64,000 nt of DNA from Minisyncoccota bacterium (GCA_041666545.1 JBAYGS010000001.1:217942-281941); one strand, 5' to 3'. Counted from the first letter of the stretch, positions 18,813 to 41,839 are shown. Numbers and translations: made by a program. The notes: generated by a model not told the origin, from the sequence alone.

Positions 18813-18836
18813 AACGCTTCGCGCTCCGGCAAATAA

Positions 18837-21271: not shown

Positions 21272-21303
21272 ATGTTATCTCTTCCTTTCTTCTGTTCTGC
21301 TGT

Positions 21304-22161: not shown

Positions 22162-22223
22162 TTTCAGCCTTTCTATATATTTTTAGTTATTTGAAGTTTT
22201 CAACGAACACAAATCTGTTTCCC

Positions 22224-22251
22224 ACTATACACAAAGTATAGTTTTTGTCAA
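22224..22251 (-). promoter_or_regulatory. candidate sigma-70 promoter TTGACA-16-TATAGT for xpaC-telA-like operon; shares an identical 26-nt block with the promoter at 25837
   Basis: Minus-strand TTGACAAAAACTATACTTTGTGTATAGTGGGAAACAGATTTGTG. Confidence 0.5.
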
Positions 22252-22304
22252 GCATTTAGGCCAAACTTGGCGTGGTCTCGGATATTAAAAAACAGTTAAT
22301 AACC

Positions 22305-22345
22305 GTTACGAATACGCCTGCCTGCCGGTAGGCAGGGCACATGAA
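22305..22345. repeat. palindromic repeat module copy: TTACGAATACG-CCTGCCTGCCGGTAGGCAGG-GCACATGAATA (20-bp palindrome, one central mismatch)
   Basis: Copies at 25890-25935 and 42040-42080 (perfect palindrome), degenerate at 18741. Confidence 0.7.
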
Positions 22346-22354
22346 TATATAAAA

Positions 22355-22382
22355 AACCGTCTCCCTCTTCGGAGAGACGGTT
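22355..22382 (-). terminator. intrinsic terminator AACCGTCTCTCCGAAGAGGGAGACGGTT + T6 (minus strand) ending the AAA gene
   Basis: Read in sequence. Confidence 0.75.
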
Positions 22383-22389
22383 GCTTCGA

Positions 22390-24033
22390 TCAGACACCGA
22401 TCTGATGAAGCTTTTGCACATTGGCAATCTGGTCCATGAAGTCGTGCGTGAACTCCCGCAATGCATCTCCATGGTCCATGCCAAACTCCTGCCGTGCGAT
22501 ATTGTCGACGGCTCCGACCAGATCCGCATCGGTCAAACCTTCGGTCGGCTCCGGCTTCAAGAGTTCCCGCTCCAAAGCCAGACGCTTGGCATCGGCGACA
22601 ATCGCCGGAATCATAGACCCACTCACAATATGGGCCAAGGTGAAGTCAACAGTCGTACCGTCAGCCTTCTTGATTTCGTAGATTCTCCGCTCCGGAGAAA
22701 AAACCGAAATCGCGCCGACTTCGGCCAACAATTCAGCCGAGGTAGTGGAGGAAATCGCCACACCCTTAAAGTTCTTGAGAAAGATTTCCCGAACCGCTAC
22801 CTTCGTGGGCCGTTTGATTTCGATTTTCACATCGATTCGACCGGGCCGAATTGCCGCACTATCCAAACTCTCCGGCTTGTTGGTCGCCAGAATCACAATC
22901 GCGCCCGATTCCCGCACGCCTTGCATCTGCGCCAGAAAGGCCGGCACAATCGTCTTCAAGACATCACTCGAAATCCCCGAATCGCGTTTGGCCAAAATCG
23001 CTTCAGCCTCGTCGATGAAGATAACCGCCATGATGCCGGTCCGACGATAGAACTCGCGGGCTCGCGCAAAGATGTGGCGGATGGTCGCTTCCGGCACGCC
23101 GACATACTTGTCGAGCAACTCCGGACCAGAAACCAGGATGAAGCCGCCTTTGGGACTCACACCTTTCTCTTCGCAACGTTTGACCAAGGAAGTGTAGACC
23201 GCCTTGGCAAACATTGTCTTGCTACAACCCGGAGGGCCGTAGAGCAGAAAGCCGGCCGCCGGCTTCTTGCCAAAGAATTTGTAATGCTTTGGAAAGCGCA
23301 TCGGCCTCTCCATCGAGTCCAAGAACAACGCCTTGGCCGCTTCTTGGCCACAAATGTCGTCCCAAGTGATGCCGGTCGCCTGATCGAGCTCAAACGAGTC
23401 GTCTTCGAGACCGTAATTTTCGAGCACGATCGCGAGGGCCGAGTCGAGTACGACTCGGCCATTCGGAACCAGTTTGCCAGCAAACTTACCGGCAAAAACT
23501 GTCCGGCGTCCACCCGAAACATCTACCACCGCCAATTCCTTGTCGATAATCTGGGAGACGAAAGCGATGCTACCGGTCGGAACTGCGGGCTCCACACCAA
23601 CGGCGCGGAGAGTTTCGCGTTCCAGCTTGACCACATCACCCGGTTCGATGTTGAGACCGTCGATCGGCACCTCAATCATCTGACCCGAGTAATTCACGGT
23701 CGCAAACCGCTCTTTTTCGCCTTCGGCGAGTTCCAGATCGCAAGCGCCACCCTGCACACCGAACATACCGATGCGATAACGATTTTTGGCACCGTCAGGA
23801 AAGCTGACCCACGACCAGCCCTCTTCCCTCGGGTCTGGCGCAAAAATCCGGCCAACCCCTTTCGGGGCTGAAGCGGCAAACTTACTGCCGGGATTAACCG
23901 TGACCAGAGTCCCAGTTTTCCGGAGCATGCTCGGAGTCGGTTTCGGCATCCGAGAACTCACTTTGAGAACTGTCGCCTGAACCAGAGGGTAACGAATTGG
24001 ATTTTGTTCCAAGTCTTGATTGAAGTCTGTCAT
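22390..24033 (-). CDS. AAA+ ATPase, classical (CDC48/FtsH-like) clade, with ~270-aa N-terminal beta-rich domain
   Basis: ITWDDICGQEAAKALF...LLYGPPGCSKT (Walker A), IFIDEAEAIL (Walker B), ILATNKPESLDSAAIRPGRID (SRH); start at ATG 24033 with AAAGGAAA RBS (track start 24087). Confidence 0.85.
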   Translation of the reverse strand: MTDFNQDLEQNPIRYPLVQATVLKVSSRMPKPTPSMLRKTGTLVTVNPGSKFAASAPKGVGRIFAPDPREEGWSWVSFPDGAKNRYRIGMFGVQGGACDLELAEGEKERFATVNYSGQMIEVPIDGLNIEPGDVVKLERETLRAVGVEPAVPTGSIAFVSQIIDKELAVVDVSGGRRTVFAGKFAGKLVPNGRVVLDSALAIVLENYGLEDDSFELDQATGITWDDICGQEAAKALFLDSMERPMRFPKHYKFFGKKPAAGFLLYGPPGCSKTMFAKAVYTSLVKRCEEKGVSPKGGFILVSGPELLDKYVGVPEATIRHIFARAREFYRRTGIMAVIFIDEAEAILAKRDSGISSDVLKTIVPAFLAQMQGVRESGAIVILATNKPESLDSAAIRPGRIDVKIEIKRPTKVAVREIFLKNFKGVAISSTTSAELLAEVGAISVFSPERRIYEIKKADGTTVDFTLAHIVSGSMIPAIVADAKRLALERELLKPEPTEGLTDADLVGAVDNIARQEFGMDHGDALREFTHDFMDQIANVQKLHQIGV

Positions 24034-24215
24034 ATCATTTCCTTTTTTTGAGTTTTTCCAAATAACAATCTGAAATATGTTTAGCATAAAACAATGATTT
24101 TGTCAAACAAAAAACCGGTAGTGCCTCCCAGTCTTATGCATCGCCCGGACCCGCCGGACGAAATAAGATGGAAGACACCACCGGTAAACTCAGCCGACTA
24201 ATCGGCCCAAACCAG

Positions 24216-25790
24216 TCAGTAGGATTCGGCCATGAGCGTAATCTCCACTCGTGGCAGACGATACCCATACGCCCGATCAGATTCGCCCGGGGCCCGAGGC
24301 AAGGGTTTCTTGCCACCGAAGCCTTCGGTCCGCATTCGGTTTTCGTCAATCGAATAGGTAATCGAGAGATACCTCGAAACCGATTCGGCCCGCTGTTCCG
24401 AGAGGGTGGCATTGGCAGTCTGGTCACCATCAAGCGAGGTGTGTCCGCCGATAAGAATCCGAAAAGTCGGATAGTGCTTCAGCCTTTCGACCGCCGCGTC
24501 CAACTTTTCTTTCTCGGAAACTCCTAACTCAGAAGAGCCGGTCTGAAAGATAATCGGGTCAACCCGAATACTTCCGACTGATCGAAGCTTGCTCCACTGC
24601 GCCGGAGTCAAAACCTTGAACGACCGCGCCAGCGCCGCCGTCGGATCGAGAGCTTTGACTCCCCCATCGAGACTTGCGAAACCGGTCCGCAAACCATTTT
24701 GGTAAATCGCCGTAATGAAGGTGCTGTTGATAATCCGATAAGGATCTTTGTCCGGTAAGGGACTCTCCTTGAAGTCGCCGGCCTCCAAAAGAATGGAGAC
24801 TGTCGAACCAATCGTATCAACCAAGCCTTGCTCAGCAATCTGCCCAGGACCGCTCACTCCAAACCACTCTTGGCAATTCTCGCTAAGATTTACAAAGCGT
24901 ACGCCATCGAGCATGGTCTGGATTGCCTCCTTGGGCACCTTGAGTTCGTCGTGAATGTCCTTCTTAAACTCTTCGGGGTTGTCGGCATAAAACTTCAACA
25001 CTCGGAAGTAGGTTTTGAGGAACAGGTCAACCCGCTCCGGATACTTGGTGGCAAACTCGCGGTTCACTACCAAAATATCGACTACGGCCCGGCTGATGCT
25101 TTCCGTCCCGATAATCTTGCCAACGCCCGGAATCTGCAGAGCCTTGGAGACATTCGGCTCCCAGAGTATTGCCATCGAAACTTTTTTGCTCTGCAACAGG
25201 CGCAAGGCTTCTTGAGAATCTTTGGTCTCGAAACGATGTTCGCGATCAAGATTTTTCAGAGCCGGCACATTGAAGTGCGAAGCGACCGTTTTTAGCAATT
25301 GATGACTCGGCGAACCTTGCGTGTAAGCAATCCGTGGCGAGACCCCACTTTTCAGCGAGTCGAGGTTTTGCACCAAATTGGTGTAGGCCACGATTGCGTC
25401 ATCGCCTTTGGATTCGTCGATGACCATGATAATCGTCGCCGGAAAATCGTGGGCGGCGGCGTTCAGGATTTCGGAGTCGACTGTCATCACCGCAAAGTCC
25501 AATTTGCCATCGCGCAGATTTTTATTCCGCGCTTGGTAATCGGCTCCGTCGTTCTGACACTCGAGCAAATAGCCCTCGTTGCGAAGGAACTTTTTCATCC
25601 GTCCGGAACTGACCGGGAAATACCCGATCCAATCGTCGTAGGCCAAAGTAATCTTGGCTTTGACATCTTTGGCGTCACTCGTTTTCTTCTGCAAATGGCT
25701 TTTGACCATGAGCAGAATTTTGAACGCGCCGAAGATGCCCAACATCACCACGACCATAACGATAAACGGGGCGAAGCTACTTTTTTTCAT
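24216..25790 (-). CDS. membrane-anchored fusion protein: NMT1/SsuA-like substrate-binding domain + C-terminal OmpA-like peptidoglycan-binding domain (paralog 2)
   Basis: N-terminal TM; ITLAYDDWIGYFPV binding-domain start; C-terminal OmpA_C motifs (LIGGHTSLDGDQTANATLSEQRAESVSRYL, RMRTEGFGGKKPL, RLPRVEITL); AAAAGGATAAAAATG RBS. Confidence 0.7.
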   Translation of the reverse strand: MKKSSFAPFIVMVVVMLGIFGAFKILLMVKSHLQKKTSDAKDVKAKITLAYDDWIGYFPVSSGRMKKFLRNEGYLLECQNDGADYQARNKNLRDGKLDFAVMTVDSEILNAAAHDFPATIIMVIDESKGDDAIVAYTNLVQNLDSLKSGVSPRIAYTQGSPSHQLLKTVASHFNVPALKNLDREHRFETKDSQEALRLLQSKKVSMAILWEPNVSKALQIPGVGKIIGTESISRAVVDILVVNREFATKYPERVDLFLKTYFRVLKFYADNPEEFKKDIHDELKVPKEAIQTMLDGVRFVNLSENCQEWFGVSGPGQIAEQGLVDTIGSTVSILLEAGDFKESPLPDKDPYRIINSTFITAIYQNGLRTGFASLDGGVKALDPTAALARSFKVLTPAQWSKLRSVGSIRVDPIIFQTGSSELGVSEKEKLDAAVERLKHYPTFRILIGGHTSLDGDQTANATLSEQRAESVSRYLSITYSIDENRMRTEGFGGKKPLPRAPGESDRAYGYRLPRVEITLMAESY

Positions 25791-25836
25791 TTTTATCCTT
25801 TTTGATTGGTTTTAAAGGTTCACAAATCTGTTTCCC

Positions 25837-25864
25837 ACTATACACATAAAATTTGTTTTGTCAA
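25837..25864 (-). promoter_or_regulatory. candidate sigma-70 promoter TTGACA-16-TATAGT; identical -10/leader block to 22224
   Basis: Minus-strand TTGACAAAACAAATTTTATGTGTATAGTGGGAAACAGATTTGTG. Confidence 0.5.
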
Positions 25865-25889
25865 CATAAATTCTGGATGGCTTTCTTAT

Positions 25890-25935
25890 TCGCATGCCCT
25901 GCCTGCCGGCAGGCAGGCCTATTCGTAAGGGTTCT
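25890..25935. repeat. palindromic repeat module copy with perfect 20-bp palindrome CCTGCCTGCCGGCAGGCAGG (25898-25917) flanked by TATTCGCATG / CCTATTCGTAAGGGTTCTTAACA
   Basis: Lies between the VWA-gene terminator and the 25837 promoter. Confidence 0.75.
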
Positions 25936-25945
25936 TAACAAAAAA

Positions 25946-25973
25946 GCCCCACACATGCATGCACGTGTGGGGC
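25946..25973 (-). terminator. intrinsic terminator (CCCCACACGTGCATGCATGTGTGGGG + T-tract, minus strand) after the VWA gene
   Basis: Read in sequence. Confidence 0.65.
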
Positions 25974-25987
25974 GACTGACATTGCAA

Positions 25988-26713
25988 CTAGAACTTGTCG
26001 GACTCGGCCAACACCTCCGCCAAACCCTTTTCAAGGTCCGCCGGATTGTTGGCTTCCTTGTAAACCGTTCGTCCCGGTTGATTGAGCGAGTGCCGGCTAC
26101 CAATGTGGAAGCCAATGGTGTGAATCACTACGGGTGAATCCCGCAAGATGATGTTCACATCATTTCCCGGATCAAAGCCTGCGTTGGCTTCCCCGTCGGT
26201 CACAATGACCAAGTGGTACTCGCCATAGCCAAGTTGCCGAACCGCTTGCTTGCGCAGTTGTTCGTAGCCGAGGCGAACCGCACTCGAGAGCGGAGTCGCA
26301 CCGCCGGCACCAGCTGACTGTACAGTTTGGTAGAACTGCTTGCGATTGTTAACCCCCAGGGGCACTCTTTCGGAGGGTCCGTTCGAGTCGAAGATGGCCA
26401 AACCAAGAGAAGTCTCGGCCGGGATTTTCCGACCAAAGGCTTCAATTGCCCGCTTGGCCGTCACAATCTTCGGCTCGCCGTTCTTGGCATCCGCCATACT
26501 GCCGGAGCAATCAAAGACGAGGTAGATGTTTCGTCGCATCAAATCGGCGTCGAGCACCACGCCCTTGGTCTCCACTCCCTTGATCCAGACATCTCCGAGA
26601 CGACTGGGATTGGGCGGAGCGGCCGTGGCCTGACTCGGCGGTTGATCGCCACAGCCCGAGATGATGAACACCCCGAGGAACAGTAAACCGAAGCGCTTGA
26701 TGAGCTTATTCAT
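25988..26713 (-). CDS. lipoprotein with von Willebrand factor type A (VWA) domain
   Basis: Lipobox LFLGVFIISGC; MIDAS motif DCSGSM; LVIVTDGEANAG; ATGA overlap with upstream gene. Confidence 0.8.
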   Translation of the reverse strand: MNKLIKRFGLLFLGVFIISGCGDQPPSQATAAPPNPSRLGDVWIKGVETKGVVLDADLMRRNIYLVFDCSGSMADAKNGEPKIVTAKRAIEAFGRKIPAETSLGLAIFDSNGPSERVPLGVNNRKQFYQTVQSAGAGGATPLSSAVRLGYEQLRKQAVRQLGYGEYHLVIVTDGEANAGFDPGNDVNIILRDSPVVIHTIGFHIGSRHSLNQPGRTVYKEANNPADLEKGLAEVLAESDKF

Positions 26714-28449
26714 TTCGCACCTCCCGCCGGCGCGAAGACCTGCATTTCAGTGTCACCAACAGGGATGAGATTGAACACCACCCGCATGTTGGAAGCCCAC
26801 TCTTGTTGAGTCTTGGGACGGATTGGTTCGCCATTCGCAATGCCGGTCTTGGGTTGTTCAAACCCGTGACCAACCACCGCATATTGCGACGGGTCCATCA
26901 CCACACCCTTCGACTTGGCGTAGTTGAGCAAGCTTTCCCGAACCGCGATTGCCCGCGTCAAGGAAAGATTCTTGGCCGACTGCCGCAAACGCGACAGAAC
27001 CAACTCCGGCGCATTCGCCAATTTCTTGTCGATATACTGCGTCGGGTCGGCATGACCCTCAACCGTGAGAATCGCACCGCCGTAGGTAGCTGCCAATTCA
27101 ATCGCCTTGTCATAATCAGCCTTGTACAGTTCAGCGTTGAAGCTGTTCTGGTTCGGGCTGAAGTAGATTTCGAGTGAAAGAATCGAGCCGTTGGCCAGGG
27201 GTCCTTGCTTCGTCCTTTGGTCAATAACTTTGGCAACTTCGCTCACTTGAAACCGAGGAGTTTCGCTCGCCACGGTTTGAGTCAGACCCCTTTTCAGAGC
27301 TTCGTAATCAAACCCGGCATGGGATAGACCGACCTTGCTGGTCAGAAGACCCATCGCGAGAAATGCATCCTGCATCTCCTTCGTCAAGGTCTCAAACTTA
27401 CGAACTTCCGTCGGTGTCGCAAAGAACTTCACGTTCCCCACATAGCCGACAAACTCACAATCGCCGTAAAGTCCCTTGGCATCAGCAACCGCCTGCTCGC
27501 TGTCGAGTAAGATTTTCGCCGAAGCCGTCATCAACTTGTCATACTCGGCCTTGCGATTGGCACTACCGATTACGAGCTGACTGAGACTTTCCTGAGCCGA
27601 CAGAAGTGCATGGACGAACTTTCCAACCTCCGCTTTATGAGCCTCGAAGTAATCGCTTCTCACTCCGTAAACATCGGGAATGATTCGGCTGGCAAGGGTG
27701 CGGAGAAGGATTTTCGCCCCCTTCACCGACCCTTCAGAGCCGGTGCCGACGGTGCCGTTTGAAGTCAAAGCCGCCGCATCGGGCGAGATGACAAAACAAG
27801 CGTCCACAGAGGGATCCTTCTTGAAGGCCTCGCTAGGAGCTTCCGCCGTACCCGTCAAGTCTTTCACCCAGCGGATTTTGACGTCGCTCATCTGGAGGCC
27901 GGCACTCTTGAGGACCGTGGCAAGATATTCAACATGCGGGCTGTAGGCCTGCAAGCAGACGGTCTTGCCTTTCAAATCCTTGATTGTATTGATGCCGGAT
28001 TTAACCACCAAGCAGTCGCCACCAGATGACCAGGTCATCTGGTAGATGACAACCAATTTGGTGCGCGGGTCCTTCGCTGTCAATTCGGAAGCCTGATTCA
28101 TCATTCCTGCTGTGCCCCGCAGATACGGAGTCACGCCGGAAATATAATGCTCCAACTGCTTGGCGAAAACATCCTCGCGAACCAACTTGAACTTCAAACC
28201 GGCTTGGGCGAAGATACTGCCTGGCGCCGTATTCACGCCACCGCCATTCGCATGGATGGTGGCGATGTCGCCACCCCAGGTGATAATCGGAAGCTCCATC
28301 ACGGAACCTTCCTGAACCGGGCCAACCTTCGTCTTGACCACCTCGGTAAGAGGCGGCGAAGCGATGTACTGGGCCGCGGGGAGACTTAGACTGAACGCCG
28401 CCAAAAGGCCCACAAAAACTGCGAGCAACTTTATCTTGTATTTTTTCAT
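26710..28449 (-). CDS. secreted fusion protein: NMT1/SsuA-like substrate-binding domain + C-terminal OmpA-like domain (paralog 1)
   Basis: Signal peptide MKKYKIKLLAVFVGLLAAFSLSLPAAQ; C-terminal OmpA_C motifs (ILTVEGHADPTQ, LSLTRAIAVRESL, NMRVVFNLI); start ATG 28449 with AGGAAAGG RBS (track extension to 28515 rejected). Confidence 0.7.
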   Translation of the reverse strand: MKKYKIKLLAVFVGLLAAFSLSLPAAQYIASPPLTEVVKTKVGPVQEGSVMELPIITWGGDIATIHANGGGVNTAPGSIFAQAGLKFKLVREDVFAKQLEHYISGVTPYLRGTAGMMNQASELTAKDPRTKLVVIYQMTWSSGGDCLVVKSGINTIKDLKGKTVCLQAYSPHVEYLATVLKSAGLQMSDVKIRWVKDLTGTAEAPSEAFKKDPSVDACFVISPDAAALTSNGTVGTGSEGSVKGAKILLRTLASRIIPDVYGVRSDYFEAHKAEVGKFVHALLSAQESLSQLVIGSANRKAEYDKLMTASAKILLDSEQAVADAKGLYGDCEFVGYVGNVKFFATPTEVRKFETLTKEMQDAFLAMGLLTSKVGLSHAGFDYEALKRGLTQTVASETPRFQVSEVAKVIDQRTKQGPLANGSILSLEIYFSPNQNSFNAELYKADYDKAIELAATYGGAILTVEGHADPTQYIDKKLANAPELVLSRLRQSAKNLSLTRAIAVRESLLNYAKSKGVVMDPSQYAVVGHGFEQPKTGIANGEPIRPKTQQEWASNMRVVFNLIPVGDTEMQVFAPAGGAK

Positions 28450-28565
28450 TATTCTGCCTTTCCTGTTTGTTTTCTGACAGCTCGTCTGTCTTTGCTTCTT
28501 GGCTTTTCCTTTCATTTAAGCCGTTTTTTCTAGATGCAAATGTCAACGAACGAACTTCTCCTACC

Positions 28566-34923: not shown

Positions 34924-35014
34924 TCGGCATTAGTTAGGTTCAGCCCGATTTTCGCAAAGCGAAAATCGGGCTTTTTGTTTGATTAATACGCTCATTTGTC
35001 ATATGATTTTATAT

Positions 35015-35791
35015 ATGGAAAATAATCTTGAGGCAAATCAGGGGGGTGATGAAAATCATGAGTCAGCCGAAAAAATGATTGACGCAGTAAAGATCTCTGC
35101 AATCTTTAGCGAAGAGGCAACACTAGAGACAATCGCCGAGAGACTTTTGTCAGACGGATCCATCTCCGGATTCACAATCGAGCCGGTAAAGTCTGGCTAT
35201 TTGTACAAGGGTGAGAAAGTTGCAGAAGGACAATTTTCCTTAAATATCCTGACTGAAGGTGACTTGACAAAAGGTCAGCACATTCGAGACGAAATTGAGA
35301 GGCAAATTGGCGACAAATGGGATGTACCGGCCATCACAGAGGAACAGGTCAGAATAAACGAGAAATTTTTAACATTTATTGAAAGAGCCGGAGTCGAGCA
35401 TAAAAAATACGTTGGTGAGAAAAAAAAGAAACTGGCTATTGCCCTATCCGGATTATTGGCCATTGCTGCAGCTCTAGGTTGGATCGGCAAGAAATATGGA
35501 GACGAGAGAGCGAGCGAAGCTGCCAGAGTCTCAGCAAAAAGTGAAAAGACGGAAGCGGAGAAAAAAATATATAAACTTACTGAGGATGTTAGATTTAAAA
35601 TTGTTGATATAGAACGAAAAATAAACGAAGTAACAGAACTGCTTCCGCAGGACCTTAAAAAGCGAGCTCAGGAGGAAATATTCCATTCTGCAAAAACTGA
35701 TATGGCTGTTGCAGGTTTTGACGAGACAGATGAAATTGTAAAAAAGATGCAGGATTTAACCCTTGAAATGGGCAAACTGGCAGAAAAATAA
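35015..35791 (+). CDS. CutA/PII-like fold domain fused to a TM segment and a C-terminal coiled coil (start uncertain)
   Basis: N-domain resembles CutA1 (AVKISAIFSEEATLETIAERLL..SGYLYKGEKV.EGQFSLNILT); central hydrophobic LAIALSGLLAIAAALGWIG; Lys/Glu-rich tail. Confidence 0.4.
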   Translation: MENNLEANQGGDENHESAEKMIDAVKISAIFSEEATLETIAERLLSDGSISGFTIEPVKSGYLYKGEKVAEGQFSLNILTEGDLTKGQHIRDEIERQIGDKWDVPAITEEQVRINEKFLTFIERAGVEHKKYVGEKKKKLAIALSGLLAIAAALGWIGKKYGDERASEAARVSAKSEKTEAEKKIYKLTEDVRFKIVDIERKINEVTELLPQDLKKRAQEEIFHSAKTDMAVAGFDETDEIVKKMQDLTLEMGKLAEK

Positions 35792-35848: not shown

Positions 35849-36565
35849 ATGTCTCGCCTTGATGTCGAATTAGTGAATCGCGGTTTGGCTCGAAGTCGGA
35901 CTATCGCTCAAACCTTAATTGAACAGGGTGCGGTTTTGCTAAACGAACAGCCGGCCGAAAAATCCAGCACCAACATCTCCCCGATCGATAAACTGGAAGT
36001 TATTGCCGATTTGCCATACGTCAGCCGAGCTGGAGTCAAACTGGAAAAAGCCCTGGATGAATTTGAACTAAATCCTAGCGGTTTAGTCGTACTTGATGTT
36101 GGCTCTTCAACCGGTGGTTTTACCGATTGCCTAATTCAGAATGGTGCAATCAAAGTCTACGCCGTCGATGTTGGCACCGGCCAACTTAATCCGGAATTAA
36201 AGAAAAATCTAAAAGTAGTTTCAATCGAGCAAACCGACATTCGCAATCTGGCTTCCATACCGGAACAGGCAGATTTGGCAGTAATCGATGTCTCTTTTAT
36301 CTCCCTAACCAAAGTCTTACCGGCCGTCAAAAAATTCTTAAAACCTCAAGCTAAAATTATTGCTTTAGTCAAACCCCAATTTGAAGTCGGGCCGGATATT
36401 GTGAATAAAAAGGGTGTAGTCGCCGATGTGAAAATCCGAGAAAAAGCTCTGCAAGATGTAATCGCTTGGACCGAACAAAACGGTTTTGTTTTCTTGAAAC
36501 AAATCGAGTCCCCGATCCACGGCACCGACGGCAACACGGAGTATCTGATTTATTTATCAATCTAA
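35849..36565 (+). CDS. tlyA: TlyA-family rRNA (cytidine-2'-O)-methyltransferase with S4 domain
   Basis: S4 N-terminus (RLDVELVNRGLARSR), FtsJ-like LDVGSSTGGFTDCL. Confidence 0.85.
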   Translation: MSRLDVELVNRGLARSRTIAQTLIEQGAVLLNEQPAEKSSTNISPIDKLEVIADLPYVSRAGVKLEKALDEFELNPSGLVVLDVGSSTGGFTDCLIQNGAIKVYAVDVGTGQLNPELKKNLKVVSIEQTDIRNLASIPEQADLAVIDVSFISLTKVLPAVKKFLKPQAKIIALVKPQFEVGPDIVNKKGVVADVKIREKALQDVIAWTEQNGFVFLKQIESPIHGTDGNTEYLIYLSI

Positions 36566-36609: not shown

Positions 36610-36635
36610 AAAAAACCCCCGGATTGCTCCGAGGG
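36610..36635 (-). terminator. probable intrinsic terminator (CCCCCGG..CCGAGGG hairpin + T-tract on minus strand) after GHKL gene
   Basis: One mismatch in stem. Confidence 0.5.
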
Positions 36636-36645
36636 TTACCACTTT

Positions 36646-38331
36646 TTAATCAGTGGAATTTTTCTTGCGACCTGCCAACATTAGACCAACGAAAGGCCCG
36701 ATGAGTTCGGCAAGGGTCAAACGGCTAGTGTCCCGCCAATCACCGCGCGGGATAGTTTGCAGGACGAGAGCGTGAATCAGGATATGCAGTTGGAGTTCTT
36801 CCAACCGGCGATCCGATGATTCACAGGCCACCCAATGGGGATGCCGGATATTGATGTGGAGTACGCCAGCTTCAGCGTCCAACTGCCAAAGATCATCCGA
36901 ACCTTCCATCAAACTGTGATTGAAGCGGAGACCGAGACTGTTGCGCTTGACCGGCACCCGAAGACCACCACTAGGAGAATCGACCACGAGCGGATGATGC
37001 TCTGGCTTTTCATCTGTCGGTGGCTTCGGCACCGCGACCGGATCAGGATCCTTGCTCGGTTCCTTTTCCTTACCGGCGCCACCTCCGACTGCCGTACCAG
37101 TAAACTCCTCGCCCTCAAGCACCTTCGTGTCATCGGGTTTAGTGTGTCTGGTACCAACACTGCCAATCTTGAAACTCTTAATGACGCCGAGCAGGCCCGC
37201 GAAAGCTTCAGTCTTAATCACCGACTGAAATCGCTCGAGAGTTTGAATTCCCAAACGAACATAGCGCTCTTCGGTTTGAGTCTTAACCGTCTCTTCGTAG
37301 TAGCTTGAACCGACGCCGACAAACCAGGCATTAATTGCCGTACAAAAGCCCCTCAAGGCTTCGTTGGCAATGAACTTCTCCCGGCCGACATGCAGCTCAA
37401 GCTTGGTGCCGACAATTTCGCCCTCGAAAACTCCGGAGGACAGTGCTTCCGCCACGTCCGGCAGAAGCCAATCCTCATCTTTCACCTGACGAAGCATCTT
37501 CGAGAGAGCGAATGTGTAAGGATTGTTGACAATCCCGACTTTTACCACGCCCCGCCGCCGACCACGCTGATCAGCTTGAGCAAGCCAGAGCCGAAAGTAG
37601 CTCATCCCGCAGGCAGGATCATCGATAAACTCGTCGGTCAGTTGTTTGCCGGTATAGGCCCGACCTGAAAAGCTGCCTCTGGCAAGCTCGCCATCTTCGT
37701 CAACGAAATCGACAAACACCACAACCTTATGCTTCAACAGCACGACATTGTAGCGCTCGATAATTCCGGAACGAAGCGACTCGGTAGACATCCGGCGCGT
37801 AATCGCGTCAGTCGTAGTTTCGTAGAGTCGAACTTCAGTGTTCCACTCCACATCACGAATATCACGCCGCAAACGGTTGGGAATATAGATCTCGCCAACC
37901 TGGCGACGAATGTCTTCGGTCACGAATTCCCACTCGACAAAATGGTCGGAACTGCCTCTCAACTTTGAAATGAAGGTGTTCCGTTTGCATTTGCCAAGAG
38001 GACTGATGAGACCTTGGCCAAACCGACCAAACTTGTCGGTCACATCAATCTTGGATGAAACCAAGCAGGAAGTCAGCGCCCTGTCGAAGTTTTCCCGACT
38101 CGTGCCGCCGCCGTTATCCCGAATGATGATTTGGTTCTTTTTCTGATCGACATAGATCCAGATTTTGGTTGCGTTAACATCCAAAGCGTTCTGGACCTGT
38201 TCGAAAATGACGAGCGGTAGTGTCCGATAATCTTCGGCAAACCGCAGGAGTCCAATTCCTAACGGATAAGCCACCCGGCTAAGGTTGCGAGTGCCACTTG
38301 TAGGCGACAGCTCAACTGTTGCAGTGCTCAT
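36646..38331 (-). CDS. GHKL/Bergerat-fold ATPase (HATPase_c) protein, 561 aa, no kinase, MutL or Hsp90 accessory domains recognisable
   Basis: N-box EQVQNALDVNAT, G1 box IRDNGGG, G2 box GRFGQGLIS; CGAGGAAAAAAATG RBS; 15 nt after the HTH gene. Confidence 0.75.
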   Translation of the reverse strand: MSTATVELSPTSGTRNLSRVAYPLGIGLLRFAEDYRTLPLVIFEQVQNALDVNATKIWIYVDQKKNQIIIRDNGGGTSRENFDRALTSCLVSSKIDVTDKFGRFGQGLISPLGKCKRNTFISKLRGSSDHFVEWEFVTEDIRRQVGEIYIPNRLRRDIRDVEWNTEVRLYETTTDAITRRMSTESLRSGIIERYNVVLLKHKVVVFVDFVDEDGELARGSFSGRAYTGKQLTDEFIDDPACGMSYFRLWLAQADQRGRRRGVVKVGIVNNPYTFALSKMLRQVKDEDWLLPDVAEALSSGVFEGEIVGTKLELHVGREKFIANEALRGFCTAINAWFVGVGSSYYEETVKTQTEERYVRLGIQTLERFQSVIKTEAFAGLLGVIKSFKIGSVGTRHTKPDDTKVLEGEEFTGTAVGGGAGKEKEPSKDPDPVAVPKPPTDEKPEHHPLVVDSPSGGLRVPVKRNSLGLRFNHSLMEGSDDLWQLDAEAGVLHINIRHPHWVACESSDRRLEELQLHILIHALVLQTIPRGDWRDTSRLTLAELIGPFVGLMLAGRKKNSTD

Positions 38332-38345
38332 TTTTTTCCTCGTGT

Positions 38346-39047
38346 TTAGCGTTTATCAGCTCCGCGAGCTTTTTCGCCGCAGAGTCGATTGAGATGATTC
38401 GCGAGCTTAAAGATGCTGGTCGCACCGGCCAACTCCCTGAGTTTGTTTCTCTCTTCCGGAGTAAAACCGTCCGAAACCACCAACTGGGCGAGTGGCAAAA
38501 TTGCCTGAACCTGGAAGGCCAAGGCCGAGATTATAAGATCGTGACTGAGATCGGTGTGAATGTTGGCTTCGAATACCGGAACAACTTGCTCTCCCGCCGA
38601 CGACGATTCGCCGGCCGTGAAGACCCGGATTTTCTGAACCAATTCGGCTTGCTTCAGGGCCAGAAATTCCGCAATCTTTTTGAGCCGAACAGGATAAACT
38701 CCGGACCGACCCAAAAGAACTCGCATCAGCGAGTGCGCATTGGGATAGTCCGCAACCTTGGCCGCCTCCCCGAAAGTTATGACCTTAAAGGCCACCAACC
38801 TGCCCAATTCCAACACTTCAGGACTAATCCCTTTCAGTTCGGAAACTTCACAACCGTGGGCATCCAAAAAGTAGCGGAGCCTGACCAAGTTTTCGCCTTC
38901 TGGCATTCTCTTGGTGACAATCCAGTTTTGGACAGTATTCGGATGAAGACCGGTGAATTCCACAATCTTGGCAATTTCCAACGGGTGCTTCGAAACCAAC
39001 TCTGTAAAGCAAAACTCTACACTTCCAGATATTTTTTCCATTTGCAT
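38346..39047 (-). CDS. HTH-domain protein (233 aa)
   Basis: Helix-turn-helix-like LEIAKIVEFTGLHPNTVQNWI; GAGAAAGG RBS; own promoter upstream. Confidence 0.5.
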   Translation of the reverse strand: MQMEKISGSVEFCFTELVSKHPLEIAKIVEFTGLHPNTVQNWIVTKRMPEGENLVRLRYFLDAHGCEVSELKGISPEVLELGRLVAFKVITFGEAAKVADYPNAHSLMRVLLGRSGVYPVRLKKIAEFLALKQAELVQKIRVFTAGESSSAGEQVVPVFEANIHTDLSHDLIISALAFQVQAILPLAQLVVSDGFTPEERNKLRELAGATSIFKLANHLNRLCGEKARGADKR

Positions 39048-39114
39048 CCTTTCTCATTAACTAGCGTTTTCAAAAGCTAAAAGCGTTGGCTTTGAGCTAA
39101 ACTATTCTGTCCTA

Positions 39115-39142
39115 AATATACATAACTAACTAGATTTGTCAA
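39115..39142 (-). promoter_or_regulatory. candidate sigma-70 promoter TTGACA-16-TATATT for the HTH-GHKL unit
   Basis: Minus-strand TTGACAAATCTAGTTAGTTATGTATATT. Confidence 0.45.
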
Positions 39143-39162
39143 CAATTTTTGGTATTTAAAAA

Positions 39163-39182
39163 CCCGCCACTTTGGGCGGGTT
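39163..39182 (-). terminator. intrinsic terminator AACCCGCC-CAAAGT-GGCGGGTT + T5 after the ParB-like gene
   Basis: Read in sequence. Confidence 0.7.
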
Positions 39183-39207
39183 GTCTCACTCGAAAAACTT
39201 TGACGAA

Positions 39208-40050
39208 TTAGGGCTTCTTTCCCGGCTTGGCCAGTTTGCGGTTGGCATCAAAAGATGCCTCAAACCGTCGTTCCCATTCCTTGAATGACTTCTCCGTCCG
39301 CCTGACCAAACGCTTCACGTGGCAGATAATCGCCTTGGCTGAAGTCTCCGAGATGGTACCATCATCAACACCATTCTTGAGTGTCCTCATTTGGCGAGCC
39401 ACACTCGCCGAATGACTACGGAACTTGGTACTGAAGGCCGCGTTGAATTCTCCGGCACCGATTTTCTTGACCGGCTTGCCCGACAATTTGCCCCGAAGAG
39501 TCCGACCGTCGACCTCGTATCTCGCCGCCGCCTCCACAACCGTGAGCCCTTCGTCAACAACTGCGTGGACTGCTTGATTGAGCCGCGCCTCGGCAATGTT
39601 TGACTTGGCATCATCCACTACCCGAATGGCAAATTCGCGCGGGAAGCCGCTGATTCCAATCAGCTGATCGATAATCTGGCGCCGCGTCTGCTTTTGTTTG
39701 AAAAGCAACTCGGCGGTATGGACCAAATCCTGTTGAGTCGGCGGCAGAGACCCGCCCAGATTGGCTTGGCAAGCCAGAACGATGAGCTTCGTCCGGTCTT
39801 GCTCCTTCGCAATGCCGAATTCAGCTTCAACCACTTCAAGGCGCTCGAGGGCCGCGAAGCGATGCCGACCATCCACCAGATTGTCAGACTGATCAATTAC
39901 CGGCAGATCAACCGCCGCCTTAGCCGCGTAAAGGCCCATAAAAAAAGCCACTCGACTTTCAATGAGGTGAGTCCGGACATAAAACGGCACTTTGACAACT
40001 GCAAGCTTGCGATTTTCCCGACGACTGATTTCAATACCGTTGAGTTGCAC
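39208..40050 (-). CDS. ParB/sulfiredoxin-fold (ParB N-terminal nuclease-like) domain protein
   Basis: PVIDQSDNLVDGRHRFAALERL matches the ParB-N DGxHR core; GTG start with GAAAGGA RBS. Confidence 0.55.
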   Translation of the reverse strand: MQLNGIEISRRENRKLAVVKVPFYVRTHLIESRVAFFMGLYAAKAAVDLPVIDQSDNLVDGRHRFAALERLEVVEAEFGIAKEQDRTKLIVLACQANLGGSLPPTQQDLVHTAELLFKQKQTRRQIIDQLIGISGFPREFAIRVVDDAKSNIAEARLNQAVHAVVDEGLTVVEAAARYEVDGRTLRGKLSGKPVKKIGAGEFNAAFSTKFRSHSASVARQMRTLKNGVDDGTISETSAKAIICHVKRLVRRTEKSFKEWERRFEASFDANRKLAKPGKKP

Positions 40051-40099: not shown

Positions 40100-40128
40100 A
40101 GTATACACAGATAGCAAGTCCTGTCAAT
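40100..40128 (-). promoter_or_regulatory. candidate sigma-70 promoter TTGACA-17-TATACT for the ParB-like gene
   Basis: Minus-strand TTGACAGGACTTGCTATCTGTGTATACT. Confidence 0.45.
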
Positions 40129-40147: not shown

Positions 40148-40801
40148 TTAGTTTAATTTTTCGGCTTGTCCGATTGAAAAATCGCCGATTTGGGTCCGCC
40201 TTAATGCCTGAAGGGTGGCCGGTAGGCCTAGTTTATAACCAATTTCTTCGGCCAGAGTACGAATGTAGGTGCCACTGCCGACTTCAAAATCAGCCTTGAT
40301 AATCTGATACTGACCGTCTTGTAAAAAACTCTTAAGAATTATTTTTTTCACTGTCATCGGCTTTTTGGGTAGCTCAATTTTCTCTCCCCGCCGAGCTTTT
40401 TTGTAAAGCGCTTCCCCACCCTGTTTGATTGCTGAATACGCCGGCACGGCAAACTCGTGCGTGCCGATTAGCTCCTTAAGTGCCACTTTTAAAGCCTCGG
40501 CTGTAACCTGGGCAGAAACCGTCTCCAAAATTTTCCCCTGAAGATCACCTGTATCAGTTTTCACGCCTAACAAAATTCCCGCCTCGTACACTTTTGGTAA
40601 TTTAAGAAATTCATTCAGCCTCTTGGTAGCTGGGCCATAGGCAATAATCATTAAGCCAGAAGCCATCGGGTCAAGTGTGCCGGCGTGACCCATCTTCCAT
40701 TTTGGTTCACCTTTTTTGGCGCCGAATTTAGTCCTTAGCCGACGAATCACATCGAAAGAAGTGATGCCGGACGGTTTATCAATTAGAATTATTCCTTCCA
40801 T
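40148..40801 (-). CDS. truB: tRNA pseudouridine(55) synthase
   Basis: ILIDKPSGITSFDV..GHAGTLDPMASGLL catalytic motif. Confidence 0.9.
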   Translation of the reverse strand: MEGIILIDKPSGITSFDVIRRLRTKFGAKKGEPKWKMGHAGTLDPMASGLMIIAYGPATKRLNEFLKLPKVYEAGILLGVKTDTGDLQGKILETVSAQVTAEALKVALKELIGTHEFAVPAYSAIKQGGEALYKKARRGEKIELPKKPMTVKKIILKSFLQDGQYQIIKADFEVGSGTYIRTLAEEIGYKLGLPATLQALRRTQIGDFSIGQAEKLN

Positions 40802-40906: not shown

Positions 40907-41245
40907 TTAAGCCAACTGTCGACGCAACATTAAGCCGTCAGTGATTCTAAGTGACCGATAAATATCCCGAATCAGAAAAAGTCCAGAGGCTAAAATCGCC
41001 AAAATCGATAACTGAACAATAAAATCAGTGCGCAAAAATGCCTGGGCAAAAAATTCGATTGCCGCCAAGCGGTCGGCCACACCCATCGAGTTGGCAACCA
41101 CATGACCGACCGAGACCAGGGAGGCTGTGAGACCGGTAAAGAGCACGACGGCCGAGATCTCCAAAACTACAGGCTGGAAAACCCGCTTTAGATAGAAAAG
41201 GAACTTGACCCTCGCCATGACATTTTGTTTGATAGTTTGAGACAT
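40907..41245 (-). CDS. small membrane protein downstream of the ECF sigma factor (possible anti-sigma factor)
   Basis: Two or three TM segments; 3-nt gap to sigma gene. Confidence 0.4.
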   Translation of the reverse strand: MSQTIKQNVMARVKFLFYLKRVFQPVVLEISAVVLFTGLTASLVSVGHVVANSMGVADRLAAIEFFAQAFLRTDFIVQLSILAILASGLFLIRDIYRSLRITDGLMLRRQLA

Positions 41246-41248
41246 TTT

Positions 41249-41839
41249 TTAAATTAGATTAGTGCTGGCTTTTTTGTATTCCTTCTTGGCTCGGTGCAAT
41301 CTGGTCCTGACGGCTGAAATCGAAATTCCTTCGGCGGTCGCGATATCTTCAGAAGTTTTGCCATCTACCACGATACTCTGCAGTAGGCTTTTGGCTCCGG
41401 AAGAAATTTTGGAAATAACTGACAAAAATTCATCAAGCTCGAGGTGCTTTTGCCAACTATCAGCCTTATCAGGCAGATTCTCCACCACCTCCGGTTCCAA
41501 ATCCATCAGACGAGTCTTCTCCAGATTTAGCTTCTTCATCTTGGTGAAGCAGGTGTTGAGCAAAATTCGATAGGCCCAAGATTTGAATGAAGCACCGGGG
41601 ACCGGCCGATACTTGGAGGCGTTAAGATAGATTTTCACGAAAGCATCCTGAACAATATCTTGCACCTCATCCGAAGCGCGTAGCATCATCCGCAGTTTTC
41701 GCACAAACGCATCCTCGTAGCGATCCACGATAACTGAAAAAGCATCTGGATTTTTGATTGAATACACCAAAACTTCCTCATCGGAAAGATTTTCGAGATG
41801 AGAGTTCAGATTCACGATTTCAGCTTCTAGTAAAGACAT
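41249..41839 (-). CDS. ECF-type RNA polymerase sigma factor (sigma-70 regions 2 and 4)
   Basis: Region 2 (QDAFVKIY...SFKSWAYRIL) and region 4 HTH (SEDIATAEGISISAVRTRLHRAK). Confidence 0.8.
   Translation of the reverse strand: MSLLEAEIVNLNSHLENLSDEEVLVYSIKNPDAFSVIVDRYEDAFVRKLRMMLRASDEVQDIVQDAFVKIYLNASKYRPVPGASFKSWAYRILLNTCFTKMKKLNLEKTRLMDLEPEVVENLPDKADSWQKHLELDEFLSVISKISSGAKSLLQSIVVDGKTSEDIATAEGISISAVRTRLHRAKKEYKKASTNLI

What the first reader, a model, noticed from the sequence alone, without database searches (positions are those of the whole stretch)
36646..40050. ParB-nuclease-like protein + HTH protein + GHKL ATPase: candidate novel NTP-dependent conflict/defence module
Three co-oriented minus-strand genes are flanked by housekeeping genes (tlyA, truB). 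The first is a ParB/Srx-fold protein with the DGxHR core (39208-40050), with its own promoter and terminator. Next come an HTH protein and a 561-aa Bergerat-fold ATPase (clear N, G1, G2 boxes) that lacks His-kinase, MutL or Hsp90 accessory domains; these two are separated by 15 nt and transcribed from a second promoter. Stand-alone GHKL ATPases and ParB-like nuclease domains recur in anti-phage/restriction-like islands, and this combination does not match any named system I can recall. There is no methyltransferase, helicase or SMC partner in the vicinity.
Basis: partly seen in the sequence, partly recalled or inferred. Interest (0 to 1): 0.75.

Follow-up and report, generated by a model that had tools for sequence, protein, structure and literature searches.

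The report
HTH–GHKL ATPase cassette beside ParB-like gene
In this genome of a tiny candidate-phyla-radiation (CPR) bacterium, a DNA-binding protein and a MutL/MORC-like ATPase form a conserved, undescribed gene pair next to a ParB-like gene from a sister cassette, so two unrelated nucleotide-driven proteins appear to serve the same unknown DNA-directed job.

Summary
All three genes are real. The window comes from a Candidatus Paceibacterota (CPR) genome. The trio is not the conserved unit.

The HTH protein and the GHKL ATPase form a two-gene cassette, here called G-type. It was found in 37 non-redundant loci, almost all CPR, with the partner always adjacent. A small 70-118 aa protein precedes it in 12 of the 37.

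The ParB-like protein is a true ParB/Srx-fold protein with HTHs and an invariant GRHR motif. It belongs to a much larger family of at least 403 clusters at 50% identity. That family usually sits in a sister cassette, here called P-type: a paralogous HTH partner, then a homologue of the same small protein, then the ParB-like gene. So two unrelated NTPases occupy the same chassis.

Only the window and one other locus (L114) place a G-type pair directly beside a ParB-like gene, and they do so in opposite orders.

The GHKL protein has a MutL/MORC-type S5 transducer domain, a 49-residue helix and a novel C-terminal domain. It is not MutL, GyrB, TopoVI-B or Hsp90.

No nuclease or other effector, no defence-island context and no consistent PADLOC match was found. 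One clade has kept the cassette at a fixed housekeeping locus. A defence role is plausible but unshown. I found no published description.

The parts
40100..40127 (-). Sigma-70-like promoter (TTGACA-16-TATACT) of the ParB-like gene
   Evidence: Matches the consensus at 11 of 12 positions. This is a consensus match only.
39208..40050 (-). ParB/Srx-fold protein with HTHs (280 aa). It has an N-terminal ParB/Srx domain with R26 and D60-G-R-H-R64, a conserved 'ANxGGxLPPT' box, two HTH regions (about 106-134 and 154-187) and a helical C-terminus.
   Evidence: The family has at least 403 clusters at 50% identity. The family profile matches sulfiredoxin, Noc, Spo0J and ParB. The AF2 model is confident only for residues 103-190.
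39156..39182 (-). Intrinsic terminator after the ParB-like gene (8-bp GC-rich stem, 6-nt loop, U tract)
   Evidence: the folded 58-nt segment has a minimum free energy of -16.7 kcal/mol (centroid hairpin -14.3), z = -2.67.
39115..39142 (-). Sigma-70-like promoter (TTGACA-16-TATATT) of the HTH-GHKL operon
   Evidence: Matches the consensus at 11 of 12 positions.
39058..39142 (-). Two copies of a 16-nt direct repeat (TTGAnAAnnCTAGTTA on the coding strand), 69 nt apart. One overlaps the -35 box and the other lies just upstream of the ribosome-binding site. This is a candidate operator for the HTH protein.
   Evidence: 13 of 16 identical. The operator role is inference only.
38346..39047 (-). Xre/Cro-C1-type HTH partner protein (233 aa) of the G-type clade. 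It has an N-terminal HTH with the W42...P49-x-G51 motif, a second HTH-like region and a C-terminal helical domain.
   Evidence: It lies immediately beside the GHKL gene wherever sequence allows the test (upstream in all but L043).
36646..38331 (-). GHKL-S5 ATPase (561 aa). It has a Bergerat ATP-binding domain (about 16-200), an S5-fold transducer (about 204-320), a 49-residue helix (324-372), a disordered linker (418-447) and a conserved alpha/beta C-terminal domain (448-554) of unknown fold.
36614..36637 (-). Intrinsic terminator after the GHKL gene (10-bp stem, U tract)
   Evidence: -17.1 kcal/mol, z = -3.5.

Best explanation
The region holds two transcription units from one family of CPR-specific cassettes.

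Unit 1 is an operon with a 14-nt gap between its two genes. It encodes an Xre/Cro-type HTH protein and a MutL/MORC-class GHKL-S5 ATPase (the G-type cassette). Unit 2 is a separately transcribed ParB/Srx-fold HTH protein. Its relatives normally sit in a sister cassette (P-type) behind a paralogous HTH partner and a small beta-rich protein.

Proposed mechanism. The HTH partner binds specific DNA, probably including its own promoter, and recruits or restrains the NTPase. The NTPase is the GHKL-S5 protein, which dimerises on ATP like MutL and MORC, or the ParB-like protein, an NTP switch like ParB, KorB or ToxB. It then clamps or compacts DNA. The module most likely serves genetic conflict. It would either act as an addiction or abortive-infection-like module, or silence invading DNA. 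A housekeeping role is less likely.

Shown here: the gene content, the folds, the conserved catalytic motifs, the strict partner-NTPase linkage, the two co-evolving partner clades, and the swap of one NTPase for the other.

Inferred: DNA clamping, the partner acting as adaptor or repressor, and the conflict role.
For: Linkage of partner and GHKL:
- The partner is adjacent and co-oriented in every G-type locus with enough flank, with no confirmed exception. Thirty-seven GHKL and 37 partner loci were recovered; L035 and L037 lack a detected partner (GHKL at a contig edge, and truncated), and in L013 and L040 the GHKL ORF runs off the locus end. Gaps run mostly from -24 to +40 nt.

Sister cassette:
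- Of 61 non-redundant ParB-like loci with at least 1.3 kb of upstream flank, 35 read partner-small-ParB, 3 partner-ParB and 10 small-ParB.
- The same small-protein family precedes the partner in 12 of 37 G-type loci.
- Partners split cleanly into a GHKL-linked clade and a ParB-linked clade. The window's partner falls in the GHKL clade.

Side-by-side occurrence:
- The G-type pair and a ParB-like gene are adjacent in two independent loci, in opposite orders and in different contexts. The window has ParB | partner-GHKL next to truB. L114 has GHKL | ParB next to pheST.

Active-site conservation:
- GHKL: E44, N48, D51, D72, G74 and G76 are invariant, and the G2 glycines G102, G105 and G107 are invariant or nearly so.
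- ParB-like: R26 and G61-R64 are invariant; N97, G99, G100, P103, P104 and D108 are at least 90% conserved.

Fold:
- The model shows a MutL/MORC/SMCHD1-type ATPase module followed by a long helix.

Hints of a conflict role:
- The distribution is sporadic: 34 of 185,579 species genomes.
- Sequences are highly divergent (29-41% identity to the window protein).
- Gene order is shuffled in L043, and between the window and L114.
- Two full-length homologues lie on IMG/VR contigs, and one cassette lies next to a DGR and a terminase.
- The operon starts with an Xre-type HTH gene, as many toxin-antitoxin and defence operons do.

Precedents:
- paraMORC GHKL proteins occur in restriction-modification-like systems (PMC2292703).
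- ToxB is a ParB-fold ATPase that is toxic through nucleoid compaction.
Against: - No nuclease, TIR, helicase, methylase or other effector domain was found in any component or any conserved neighbour.
- PADLOC gives only partial GHKL-domain hits, for example TmtA over 67 of 1486 profile positions, and nothing consistent for the ParB-like family.
- The 111 immediate neighbours of G-type cassettes are overwhelmingly housekeeping genes, with no integrase, transposase or restriction-modification enrichment.
- One clade keeps the cassette at ArgRS - P-type ATPase - cassette while ArgRS has diverged to 56-64% identity. That looks like a stably useful gene rather than a fast-turnover defence gene.
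- No match was found in GenBank phages.
- The partner, the small protein and the N-terminus of the ParB-like protein have no confident structure model (the partner and small protein were not modelled).
- DNA binding, NTP hydrolysis and protein-protein contacts are all untested.
Confidence: 0.45

Rival explanations
1. One reading: the three genes form one anti-phage defence system. The ParB-like protein is the nuclease effector, the HTH protein is the regulator or sensor, and the GHKL ATPase is the motor.
For: - The three genes are adjacent, co-oriented and higher in GC than both flanking genes.
- A second locus (L114) also joins a GHKL gene and a ParB-like gene.
- GHKL and ParB/Srx-like domains recur in defence systems (PMC2292703; VcSduA GHKL-Shedu).
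Against: - The trio recurs nowhere else. The other G-type loci first collected have no ParB-like gene within 6-8 kb, and about 100 ParB-like loci have no GHKL gene.
- The ParB-like gene has its own promoter and terminator.
- Nuclease activity is not indicated. The family resembles NTP-binding ParB/Srx proteins with HTHs.
- There is no consistent PADLOC hit and no defence-island context.
Confidence: 0.12
2. A non-conflict cellular module. It would be a CPR-specific DNA-organisation or gene-regulation system, resembling a nucleoid-associated protein, Noc, or KorA-KorB. A site-specific HTH protein would load an NTP-gated clamp (GHKL-S5 or ParB-like) to silence or organise chromosomal regions.
For: - Every component except the small protein and the GHKL protein carries an HTH, and no effector domain is present.
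- The cassette is inherited vertically at a fixed housekeeping locus in one clade, and neighbours are housekeeping genes.
- ParB-family clamps that regulate transcription are known: VirB, BisD and Noc (titles and abstracts).
- MORC and SMCHD1 are DNA-compacting clamps (structural hits; the function is from general knowledge).
Against: - G-type cassettes are present in only 34 of 185,579 species-representative genomes. The ParB-like family has only a few hundred 50%-identity clusters, which looks too patchy for a core function.
- The proteins evolve fast: partners share 33-39% identity where ArgRS shares 56-64%.
- Gene order and composition vary.
- Some copies occur on putative viral contigs.
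Confidence: 0.28
3. A remnant of a mobile element's maintenance or immunity region. A CI/Cro-like repressor plus a ParB-like partition or regulatory protein from a CPR phage or plasmid became stranded in the chromosome, and the GHKL protein is a phage-type (rIIA-like) protein.
For: - The partner resembles phage repressors (P22 C2 at 0.0025, with weak Phage_CII and CI hits).
- BFVD structural hits include rIIA-type GHKL proteins.
- L002 lies next to a DGR and a terminase.
- L043 and L042 are IMG/VR contigs.
- The region has a GC step against its flanks.
Against: - The cassettes are isolated units of 2-3 genes with no integrase, att-like repeats, tRNA genes or other phage genes around them.
- Only 5 of 2.9 million viral contigs match the ParB-like DNA pattern, against more than 119 metagenome contigs.
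- There is no hit in 50,697 GenBank phages.
- Long-term synteny in one clade argues against a recent insertion.
Confidence: 0.1

Closest known systems
Prokaryotic MORC/paraMORC GHKL-S5 ATPases (Iyer, Abhiman & Aravind 2008, PMC2292703)
   Same: Both have an N-terminal GHKL domain of the HATPase_c_3 type followed by an S5-fold domain. Both have family-specific C-terminal extensions, and both are sporadically distributed.
   Different: paraMORCs are defined by their neighbourhood: SF-II helicases, methylases and Vsr or restriction-fold nucleases. None of these is linked here. The obligate partner here is an Xre-type HTH protein. The C-terminal domain matches nothing known, and the family is restricted to CPR.
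[not shown]
   Same: The GHKL + transducer fold and the ExxxNxxD and DxGxG motifs.
   Different: The score against the MutL equivalog model is 25.6 bits against a cut-off of 180. No MutL C-terminal endonuclease or dimerisation domain was detected. Fold similarity to MORC, SMCHD1 and Hsp90 is equally strong.
KorA-KorB, Noc, VirB and BisD type ParB-fold NTP switches that regulate DNA or transcription
   Same: A ParB/Srx N-terminal domain followed by an HTH, with no ParA partner. KorB likewise works with a separate small DNA-binding protein. The profile matches Noc, Spo0J and ParB. Orphan ParB-like proteins are common (PMC12704722).
   Different: The Box II motif reads DGRHR (Srx-like), not GERRxRA. 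The region corresponding to Box III reads ANxGGxLPPT. Nucleotide specificity cannot be predicted. The partners here (an Xre HTH protein of about 250 aa and a protein of about 90 aa) are unrelated to KorA or ParA. The KorA-KorB comparison rests on my own knowledge and was not tested here.
Xre-HTH-led type II toxin-antitoxin and abortive-infection operons
   Same: The first gene encodes an Xre/Cro HTH protein. It is closely spaced with, or overlaps, a larger enzymatic gene. The units are isolated, carry their own promoter and terminator, and are patchily distributed.
   Different: The candidate 'toxin' is a 560-aa GHKL-S5 ATPase or a 270-aa ParB-like HTH protein, and neither is a known toxin family. 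Toxicity is untested. The partner is much larger than typical antitoxins.
CapK-CapS (PMC13373217) and TasParB of TIGR-Tas (PMC12045711)
   Same: CapK-CapS pairs a GHKL-type protein with a DNA-binding repressor. TasParB is a ParB-like gene in small operons of CPR bacteria and phages.
   Different: CapK is a small anti-sigma-factor-type kinase and CapS has a STAS domain; neither is seen here. No TIGR-like arrays lie near the cassettes, and no Nop-domain hit appeared in the partner proteins scanned.

Membership tests
GHKL (Bergerat-fold) ATPase superfamily | N box (ExxxNxxD), G1 (DxGxG) and G2 glycine-rich motifs, on a Bergerat fold | tested here: met
   [not shown]
MORC/paraMORC-type ATPase module | GHKL domain directly followed by an S5-fold (transducer) domain | tested here: met
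   [not shown]
MORC/paraMORC-type ATPase module | Conserved neighbourhood with SF-II helicase, DNA methylase or restriction-fold/Vsr nuclease genes (PMC2292703) | tested here: not met
   Among 111 immediate neighbours of G-type cassettes, no family occurs in more than 4 loci and there is no such enrichment. The only conserved neighbours are the HTH partner and the small protein.
MutL | Passes the MutL equivalog model and has the C-terminal dimerisation/endonuclease domain | tested here: not met
   TIGR00585 scores 25.6 bits against a cut-off of 180, and only residues 41-95 match. The PDB profile hits cover profile positions 33-92 only. No MutL C-terminal family appeared in Pfam.
GyrB, TopoVI-B and Hsp90 | Family equivalog score, a Toprim domain or A-subunit partner, or the Hsp90 middle and C-terminal domains | tested here: not met
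   top6b scores 15-18 bits against cut-offs of 274-381. HtpG scores 12.5 against 371. No Toprim domain or DNA_gyraseB family was found. Foldseek TM-scores are at most 0.44.
ParB/Srx fold (ParB_N, PF02195) | N-terminal ParB/sulfiredoxin domain with the conserved Arg-rich GxxR(H)R motif | tested here: met
   The family profile matches sulfiredoxin at 1.9e-5, and Noc, Spo0J and ParB at about 1e-3. Five of 64 members reach Pfam ParB_N. G61-R62-H63-R64 and R26 are invariant. The window protein alone is below Pfam detection, and the N-terminus of its AF2 model is unreliable.
Canonical ParABS ParB | parA partner gene, a GERRxRA CTP-binding box and parS sites | tested here: not met
   The flanking genes are truB and the HTH partner. 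The motif is DGRHR. Apart from the paralogous HTH partner and the small protein, no gene family recurs next to the ParB-like gene in more than 16 of 102 loci, and nothing recurs downstream. The neighbour families were not scanned against Pfam, so ParA was not tested directly. parS sites were not searched for.
ParB-like nuclease | Demonstrable DNase activity or catalytic residues | not testable with these tools
   Sequence alone cannot separate NTP-binding from nuclease versions of the fold. The survey in PMC12704722 reports that even nucleotide specificity cannot be predicted.
Xre/Cro-C1 HTH family (partner protein) | HTH_3-type helix-turn-helix | tested here: met
   HTH_3 is found in 5 of 60 members, HTH_31 in 2 and HTH_17 in 4. 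The profile matches P22 C2 at 0.0025 across the W...PxGE motif. The match is weak for the window protein alone.
Known anti-phage systems in PADLOC-DB v2 (for example Tiamat TmtA, MZA MzaB, DndB) | Full-length match to a system component and presence of the system's other genes | tested here: not met
   TmtA at 3.7e-9 covers only residues 41-108 of the protein, or profile positions 78-144 of 1486. MzaB is at 1.5e-3. Across 64 ParB-like members, no model is hit by more than 2.
Type II toxin-antitoxin or abortive-infection module | Toxicity of the second gene, neutralised by the first | not testable with these tools
   Only the operon architecture is compatible.
TIGR-Tas (TasParB) | Adjacent Nop-domain Tas protein and a TIGR repeat array | tested here: not met
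   TRF found no arrays next to any cassette. No Nop-domain hit appeared in the partner proteins scanned.

The most novel reading that the evidence does not exclude
These cassettes define a previously unrecognised, CPR-specific class of NTP-gated DNA-acting systems. The chassis consists of a shared Xre-type HTH adaptor and a small beta-rich protein. It can take either a ParB/Srx-fold NTPase or a MutL/MORC-type GHKL ATPase. This would be a natural non-homologous swap showing that ParB-type and GHKL-type dimerising clamps are functionally interchangeable. The window would be a rare hybrid that uses both.
Probability: 0.3. Interest if true: 0.8.

Novelty: new variant of a known kind. Interest (0 to 1): 0.62.

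Why it matters
ParB-type CTP/NTP switches and GHKL ATPases (MutL, MORC, SMCHD1) are the two best-known kinds of nucleotide-closed protein clamps on DNA. They have so far been studied in separate biological contexts. Here each occupies the same slot in a conserved cassette, next to paralogous HTH partners and the same small protein. That is comparative evidence that they can do the same job.

The finding also offers a compact experimental system of 2-3 genes for asking what that job is. CPR bacteria have tiny genomes, much of whose accessory gene content has no known function. Three of the four protein families carry no useful annotation: the partner and the small protein match no family, and the only named ParB-like homologue retrieved is labelled hypothetical. 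If the function is defence or addiction, this adds a new system type for a phylum-level group that is poorly covered by defence catalogues. If it is chromosome organisation, it would be a CPR-specific nucleoid system.

Tried and rejected
- Word-indexed homologue searches for the HTH partner and the ParB-like protein found almost nothing (1 and 3 hits). This wrongly suggested orphan genes. An exhaustive phmmer search and local HMM searches of fetched loci corrected it.
The partner was therefore never modelled.
- The ParB-like AF2 model, built from 3 sequences, has pLDDT below 50 for residues 1-102. It could not test the Srx fold, so a profile-versus-PDB search was used instead.
I replaced it with a hand-built degenerate DNA pattern (DGRHR, then 32 aa, then NxGGxxPP).
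- tblastn of the ParB-like and GHKL proteins against GenBank phages found no match.
- The afdb50 fold library was unavailable.
- Foldseek against the PDB and BFVD gave only generic GHKL + middle-domain hits and nothing for the C-terminal domain.
- The small protein has no Pfam or PDB relative.
- hhalign of the GHKL alignment against the other families gave 99% 'hits'. All of them map to the gap-rich basic C-terminal tail, so I rejected them as a composition artefact. Protein comparison on these alignments failed.
- I considered and rejected a TIGR-Tas link (no arrays) and a CapK/CapS link (different GHKL subfamily, no STAS domain).
- A search for att-like repeats or tRNA genes flanking the three genes found nothing.
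- The GC step at both borders is suggestive, but similar GC values occur elsewhere in the window.

Full report
OBSERVATION

Upstream on the same strand is TruB (40148-40801). On the other side is a convergent FtsJ/S4 TlyA-type methyltransferase (35849-36565). Promoter-like sites matching the consensus at 11 of 12 positions precede the first and second genes. Stable GC-rich hairpins with U tracts follow the first and third genes. The HTH and GHKL genes are 14 nt apart. The window comes from a Candidatus Paceibacterota (CPR/Patescibacteria) genome. This follows from 100%-identical NCBI proteins (P0001, P0028) carrying that label.

THE GHKL PROTEIN

Pfam calls HATPase_c_3 on residues 41-139. An alignment of 24 family members shows an invariant N box (E44, N48, D51), an invariant G1 box (D72, G74, G76) and a G2 box in which G107 is invariant and G102 and G105 are at least 90% conserved. 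Strongly conserved blocks also run through the rest of the protein, including 'SSGVFEGEI', 'ERYQxLG' and 'FNIRHPLW'.

After that module come a 49-residue helix, a disordered linker and a conserved alpha/beta domain (448-554). No search gave a match for this last domain. The protein falls far below the NCBIfam cut-offs for MutL, TopoVI-B and HtpG. PADLOC hits (TmtA, MzaB) cover only the ATP-binding core.

THE CONSERVED UNIT IS THE PAIR

The word-indexed search of 5.8 billion proteins returned only 27 clusters related to the GHKL protein. A scan of 185,579 species-representative genomes found 34 loci. All the informative record titles are Patescibacteria. A few 'Gammaproteobacteria' or 'Bdellovibrionales' titles share synteny, and 56-64% identical ArgRS, with Parcubacteria loci, so they are probably mislabelled bins.

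In every non-redundant locus where sequence allows the test, a co-oriented homologue of the window's 233-aa protein sits immediately beside the GHKL gene (37 GHKL and 37 partner loci; L035 and L037 lack a detected partner, at a contig edge and with a truncated GHKL). It lies upstream in all but L043, where the order is reversed. The two genes usually overlap or lie within about 40 nt of each other. I call this pair the G-type cassette. A third family, of 70-118 aa, precedes the partner in 12 of the 37 loci. It is beta-rich, carries the motif ITFSLxxWxxxxxPxxGQxVxL...GWRA, and has no relative in Pfam or the PDB. It is absent from the window.

The partner is an Xre/Cro-C1-type HTH protein. A 60-member profile matches the P22 C2 repressor (0.0025) across the typical W...PxGE motif. 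Several members reach HTH_3, HTH_31 or HTH_17.

THE ParB-LIKE PROTEIN

No ParB-like gene occurs in any of the GHKL loci first collected (L001-L045), and the word-indexed search found only two relatives. The exhaustive phmmer search changed the picture. It found 403 representatives of 50%-identity clusters at E <= 1e-3, and 295 at E <= 1e-10. Nearly all of those listed match over their full length and are about 260-300 aa.

A 64-member profile matches sulfiredoxin (1.9e-5), Noc, Spo0J and ParB (about 1e-3). Five members reach Pfam ParB_N and 22 reach HTH_psq. R26 and G61-R62-H63-R64 are invariant. The ParB/Srx assignment is therefore correct, even though neither the single sequence nor my shallow AF2 model could show it. 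There is no ParA partner. The arginine box is Srx-like (DGRHR) rather than GERRxRA. Whether the protein is a nuclease or an NTP switch cannot be told from sequence. The recent survey of the ParB-CTPase fold says the same even for nucleotide specificity (PMC12704722).

THE LINK BETWEEN THE TWO

The context of one ParB-like relative (L046) showed a partner homologue, then a small-protein homologue, then the ParB-like gene, with no GHKL gene nearby. A degenerate DNA pattern scan of JGI metagenome contigs returned 119 loci, and 116 of them encode the ParB-like family.

Among 61 non-redundant loci with at least 1.3 kb of upstream flank:
- 35 read partner - small - ParB-like;
- 3 read partner - ParB-like;
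- 10 read small - ParB-like;
- 12 have neither partner nor small protein;
- 1 (L114) has a GHKL gene directly upstream.

I call the partner - small - ParB-like arrangement the P-type cassette. Nothing downstream of it is conserved. A neighbour-joining tree of 81 partner proteins splits cleanly into a GHKL-linked clade and a ParB-linked clade. The window's partner falls inside the GHKL clade.

So there are two sister cassettes. They share a paralogous HTH partner and a homologous small protein, but carry unrelated NTPases. The window (ParB-like | partner-GHKL, next to truB) and L114 (divergent partner fragment-GHKL | ParB-like, next to pheST) are two independent hybrids. The gene orders are opposite, and the two ParB-like proteins share only 31% identity. 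In both hybrids the ParB-like gene lacks its own P-type partner and small protein.

CONTEXT AND EVOLUTION

None of the other loci lies between truB and tlyA. The 111 genes immediately flanking G-type cassettes are tRNA synthetases, ribosomal proteins, gyrase, MreB, the Pol III alpha subunit and similar genes. No family occurs in more than four loci, and there is no integrase, transposase or restriction-modification enrichment.

In one clade (L002, L026, L028, L030, L034, L039) the cassette has stayed behind ArgRS and a P-type ATPase. Over that span ArgRS has diverged to 56-64% identity, GHKL to 42-48% and the partner to 33-39%. This indicates long vertical inheritance with fast evolution.

Several points argue against a core function:
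- the family is very sparse;
- gene order and composition vary;
- full-length homologues sit on two IMG/VR contigs;
- one copy lies next to a DGR and a terminase.

In the window the three genes have 50-54% GC against 44-45% in both flanking genes. Equal values occur elsewhere in the window, and there are no flanking repeats or tRNA genes.

MECHANISM

What is shown:
- the folds, the intact nucleotide-binding motifs and the strict linkage;
- co-evolution of each partner clade with its NTPase;
- displacement of one NTPase by another.

What I infer is as follows. The partner's N-terminal HTH binds specific DNA. A 16-nt direct repeat overlapping the -35 box and recurring 69 nt downstream is a candidate operator. 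The partner's C-terminal helical domain holds the NTPase. The NTPase, whether a GHKL-S5 dimer closing on ATP or a ParB-like dimer closing on NTP, clamps or compacts DNA.

An operon that starts with an Xre-type HTH gene and stands alone with its own promoter and terminator is typical of toxin-antitoxin and abortive-infection modules. Together with the sparse, shuffled distribution, this makes a conflict role the most likely (about 45-50%). The ParB-fold ATPase toxin ToxB, which kills through nucleoid compaction, shows that such a protein needs no separate nuclease. A non-conflict DNA-organisation or silencing role remains a serious rival (about 28%). It is supported by the lack of any effector, the housekeeping context and the vertical inheritance.

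COMPARISON WITH KNOWN SYSTEMS

By architecture the GHKL protein belongs with the MORC/paraMORC radiation (PMC2292703). It fails the neighbourhood criterion that defines the functional context of those families. The ParB-like protein is an 'orphan ParB-fold' protein in the sense of PMC12704722, and that survey's text mentions no GHKL, MORC or Patescibacteria association. CapK/CapS, GHKL-Shedu and TasParB/TIGR-Tas are analogies only. PADLOC v2 recognises none of the components as a system. I found no description of either cassette in the searchable literature. Absence from this library is not proof that none exists.

VERDICT

The real finding is broader than the trio. It is an undescribed, CPR-restricted pair of sister cassettes in which a ParB/Srx NTPase and a MutL/MORC-type GHKL ATPase are interchangeable. 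The window is a rare hybrid of the two.

Noticed in passing
L044:10830-11072 (IMG/VR contig IMGVR_UViG_3300029305_005371): A tandem array with a 36-nt period and 6.8 copies lies on a 248-kb viral contig. That contig entered only through a weak GHKL-domain hit. The 36-nt periodicity recalls TIGR arrays (PMC12045711).
   Followed up: no
L002:11796-13178 and 16069-17577: A diversity-generating retroelement (RVT_1 reverse transcriptase plus bAvd) and a terminase-like gene lie 2-8 kb downstream of a G-type cassette. This suggests a prophage border.
   Followed up: no
L046:7720-8561: The ParB-like gene of this P-type cassette is split by a frameshift just after the DGRHR motif, into a 102-aa ORF and the 186-aa P0031. 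It may be a pseudogene, a sequencing error or a programmed frameshift.
   Followed up: partly
window 39058-39073 and 39127-39142: A 16-nt direct repeat (TTGAnAAnnCTAGTTA on the coding strand) occurs in the HTH-GHKL promoter region. One copy overlaps the -35 hexamer. It may be an operator.
   Followed up: partly
window 40907-41839 (-): An ECF-type sigma factor (Sigma70_r2/r4_2, 196 aa) is followed by a 112-aa hydrophobic protein with no significant family match that could be an anti-sigma factor (a guess). They lie directly upstream of truB.
   Followed up: no
window about 14600-28500: A block of genes has markedly higher GC3 (0.55-0.71) than most of the window (about 0.42-0.55). Its gene content was not examined.
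   Followed up: no
L067, L074, L077, L081, L092, L111, L125, L132, L154, L161: In these ParB-like loci the upstream small protein strongly resembles the G-type small protein (E 1e-20 to 1e-28), and no partner was detected. This is a two-gene small-ParB variant.
   Followed up: partly
L027:3070-3276: A tandem repeat with a 68-nt period and 3.1 copies lies about 2 kb upstream of a G-type cassette.
   Followed up: no
L007:4666-5304 (-): An HNH endonuclease gene lies convergent to, and immediately downstream of, the GHKL gene. This is the only G-type locus seen with an adjacent nuclease.
   Followed up: no
window 34979-35791 (+): A 270-aa ORF with no Pfam family has the lowest GC in the neighbourhood (40%). 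It lies between an MFS transporter gene and tlyA.
   Followed up: no
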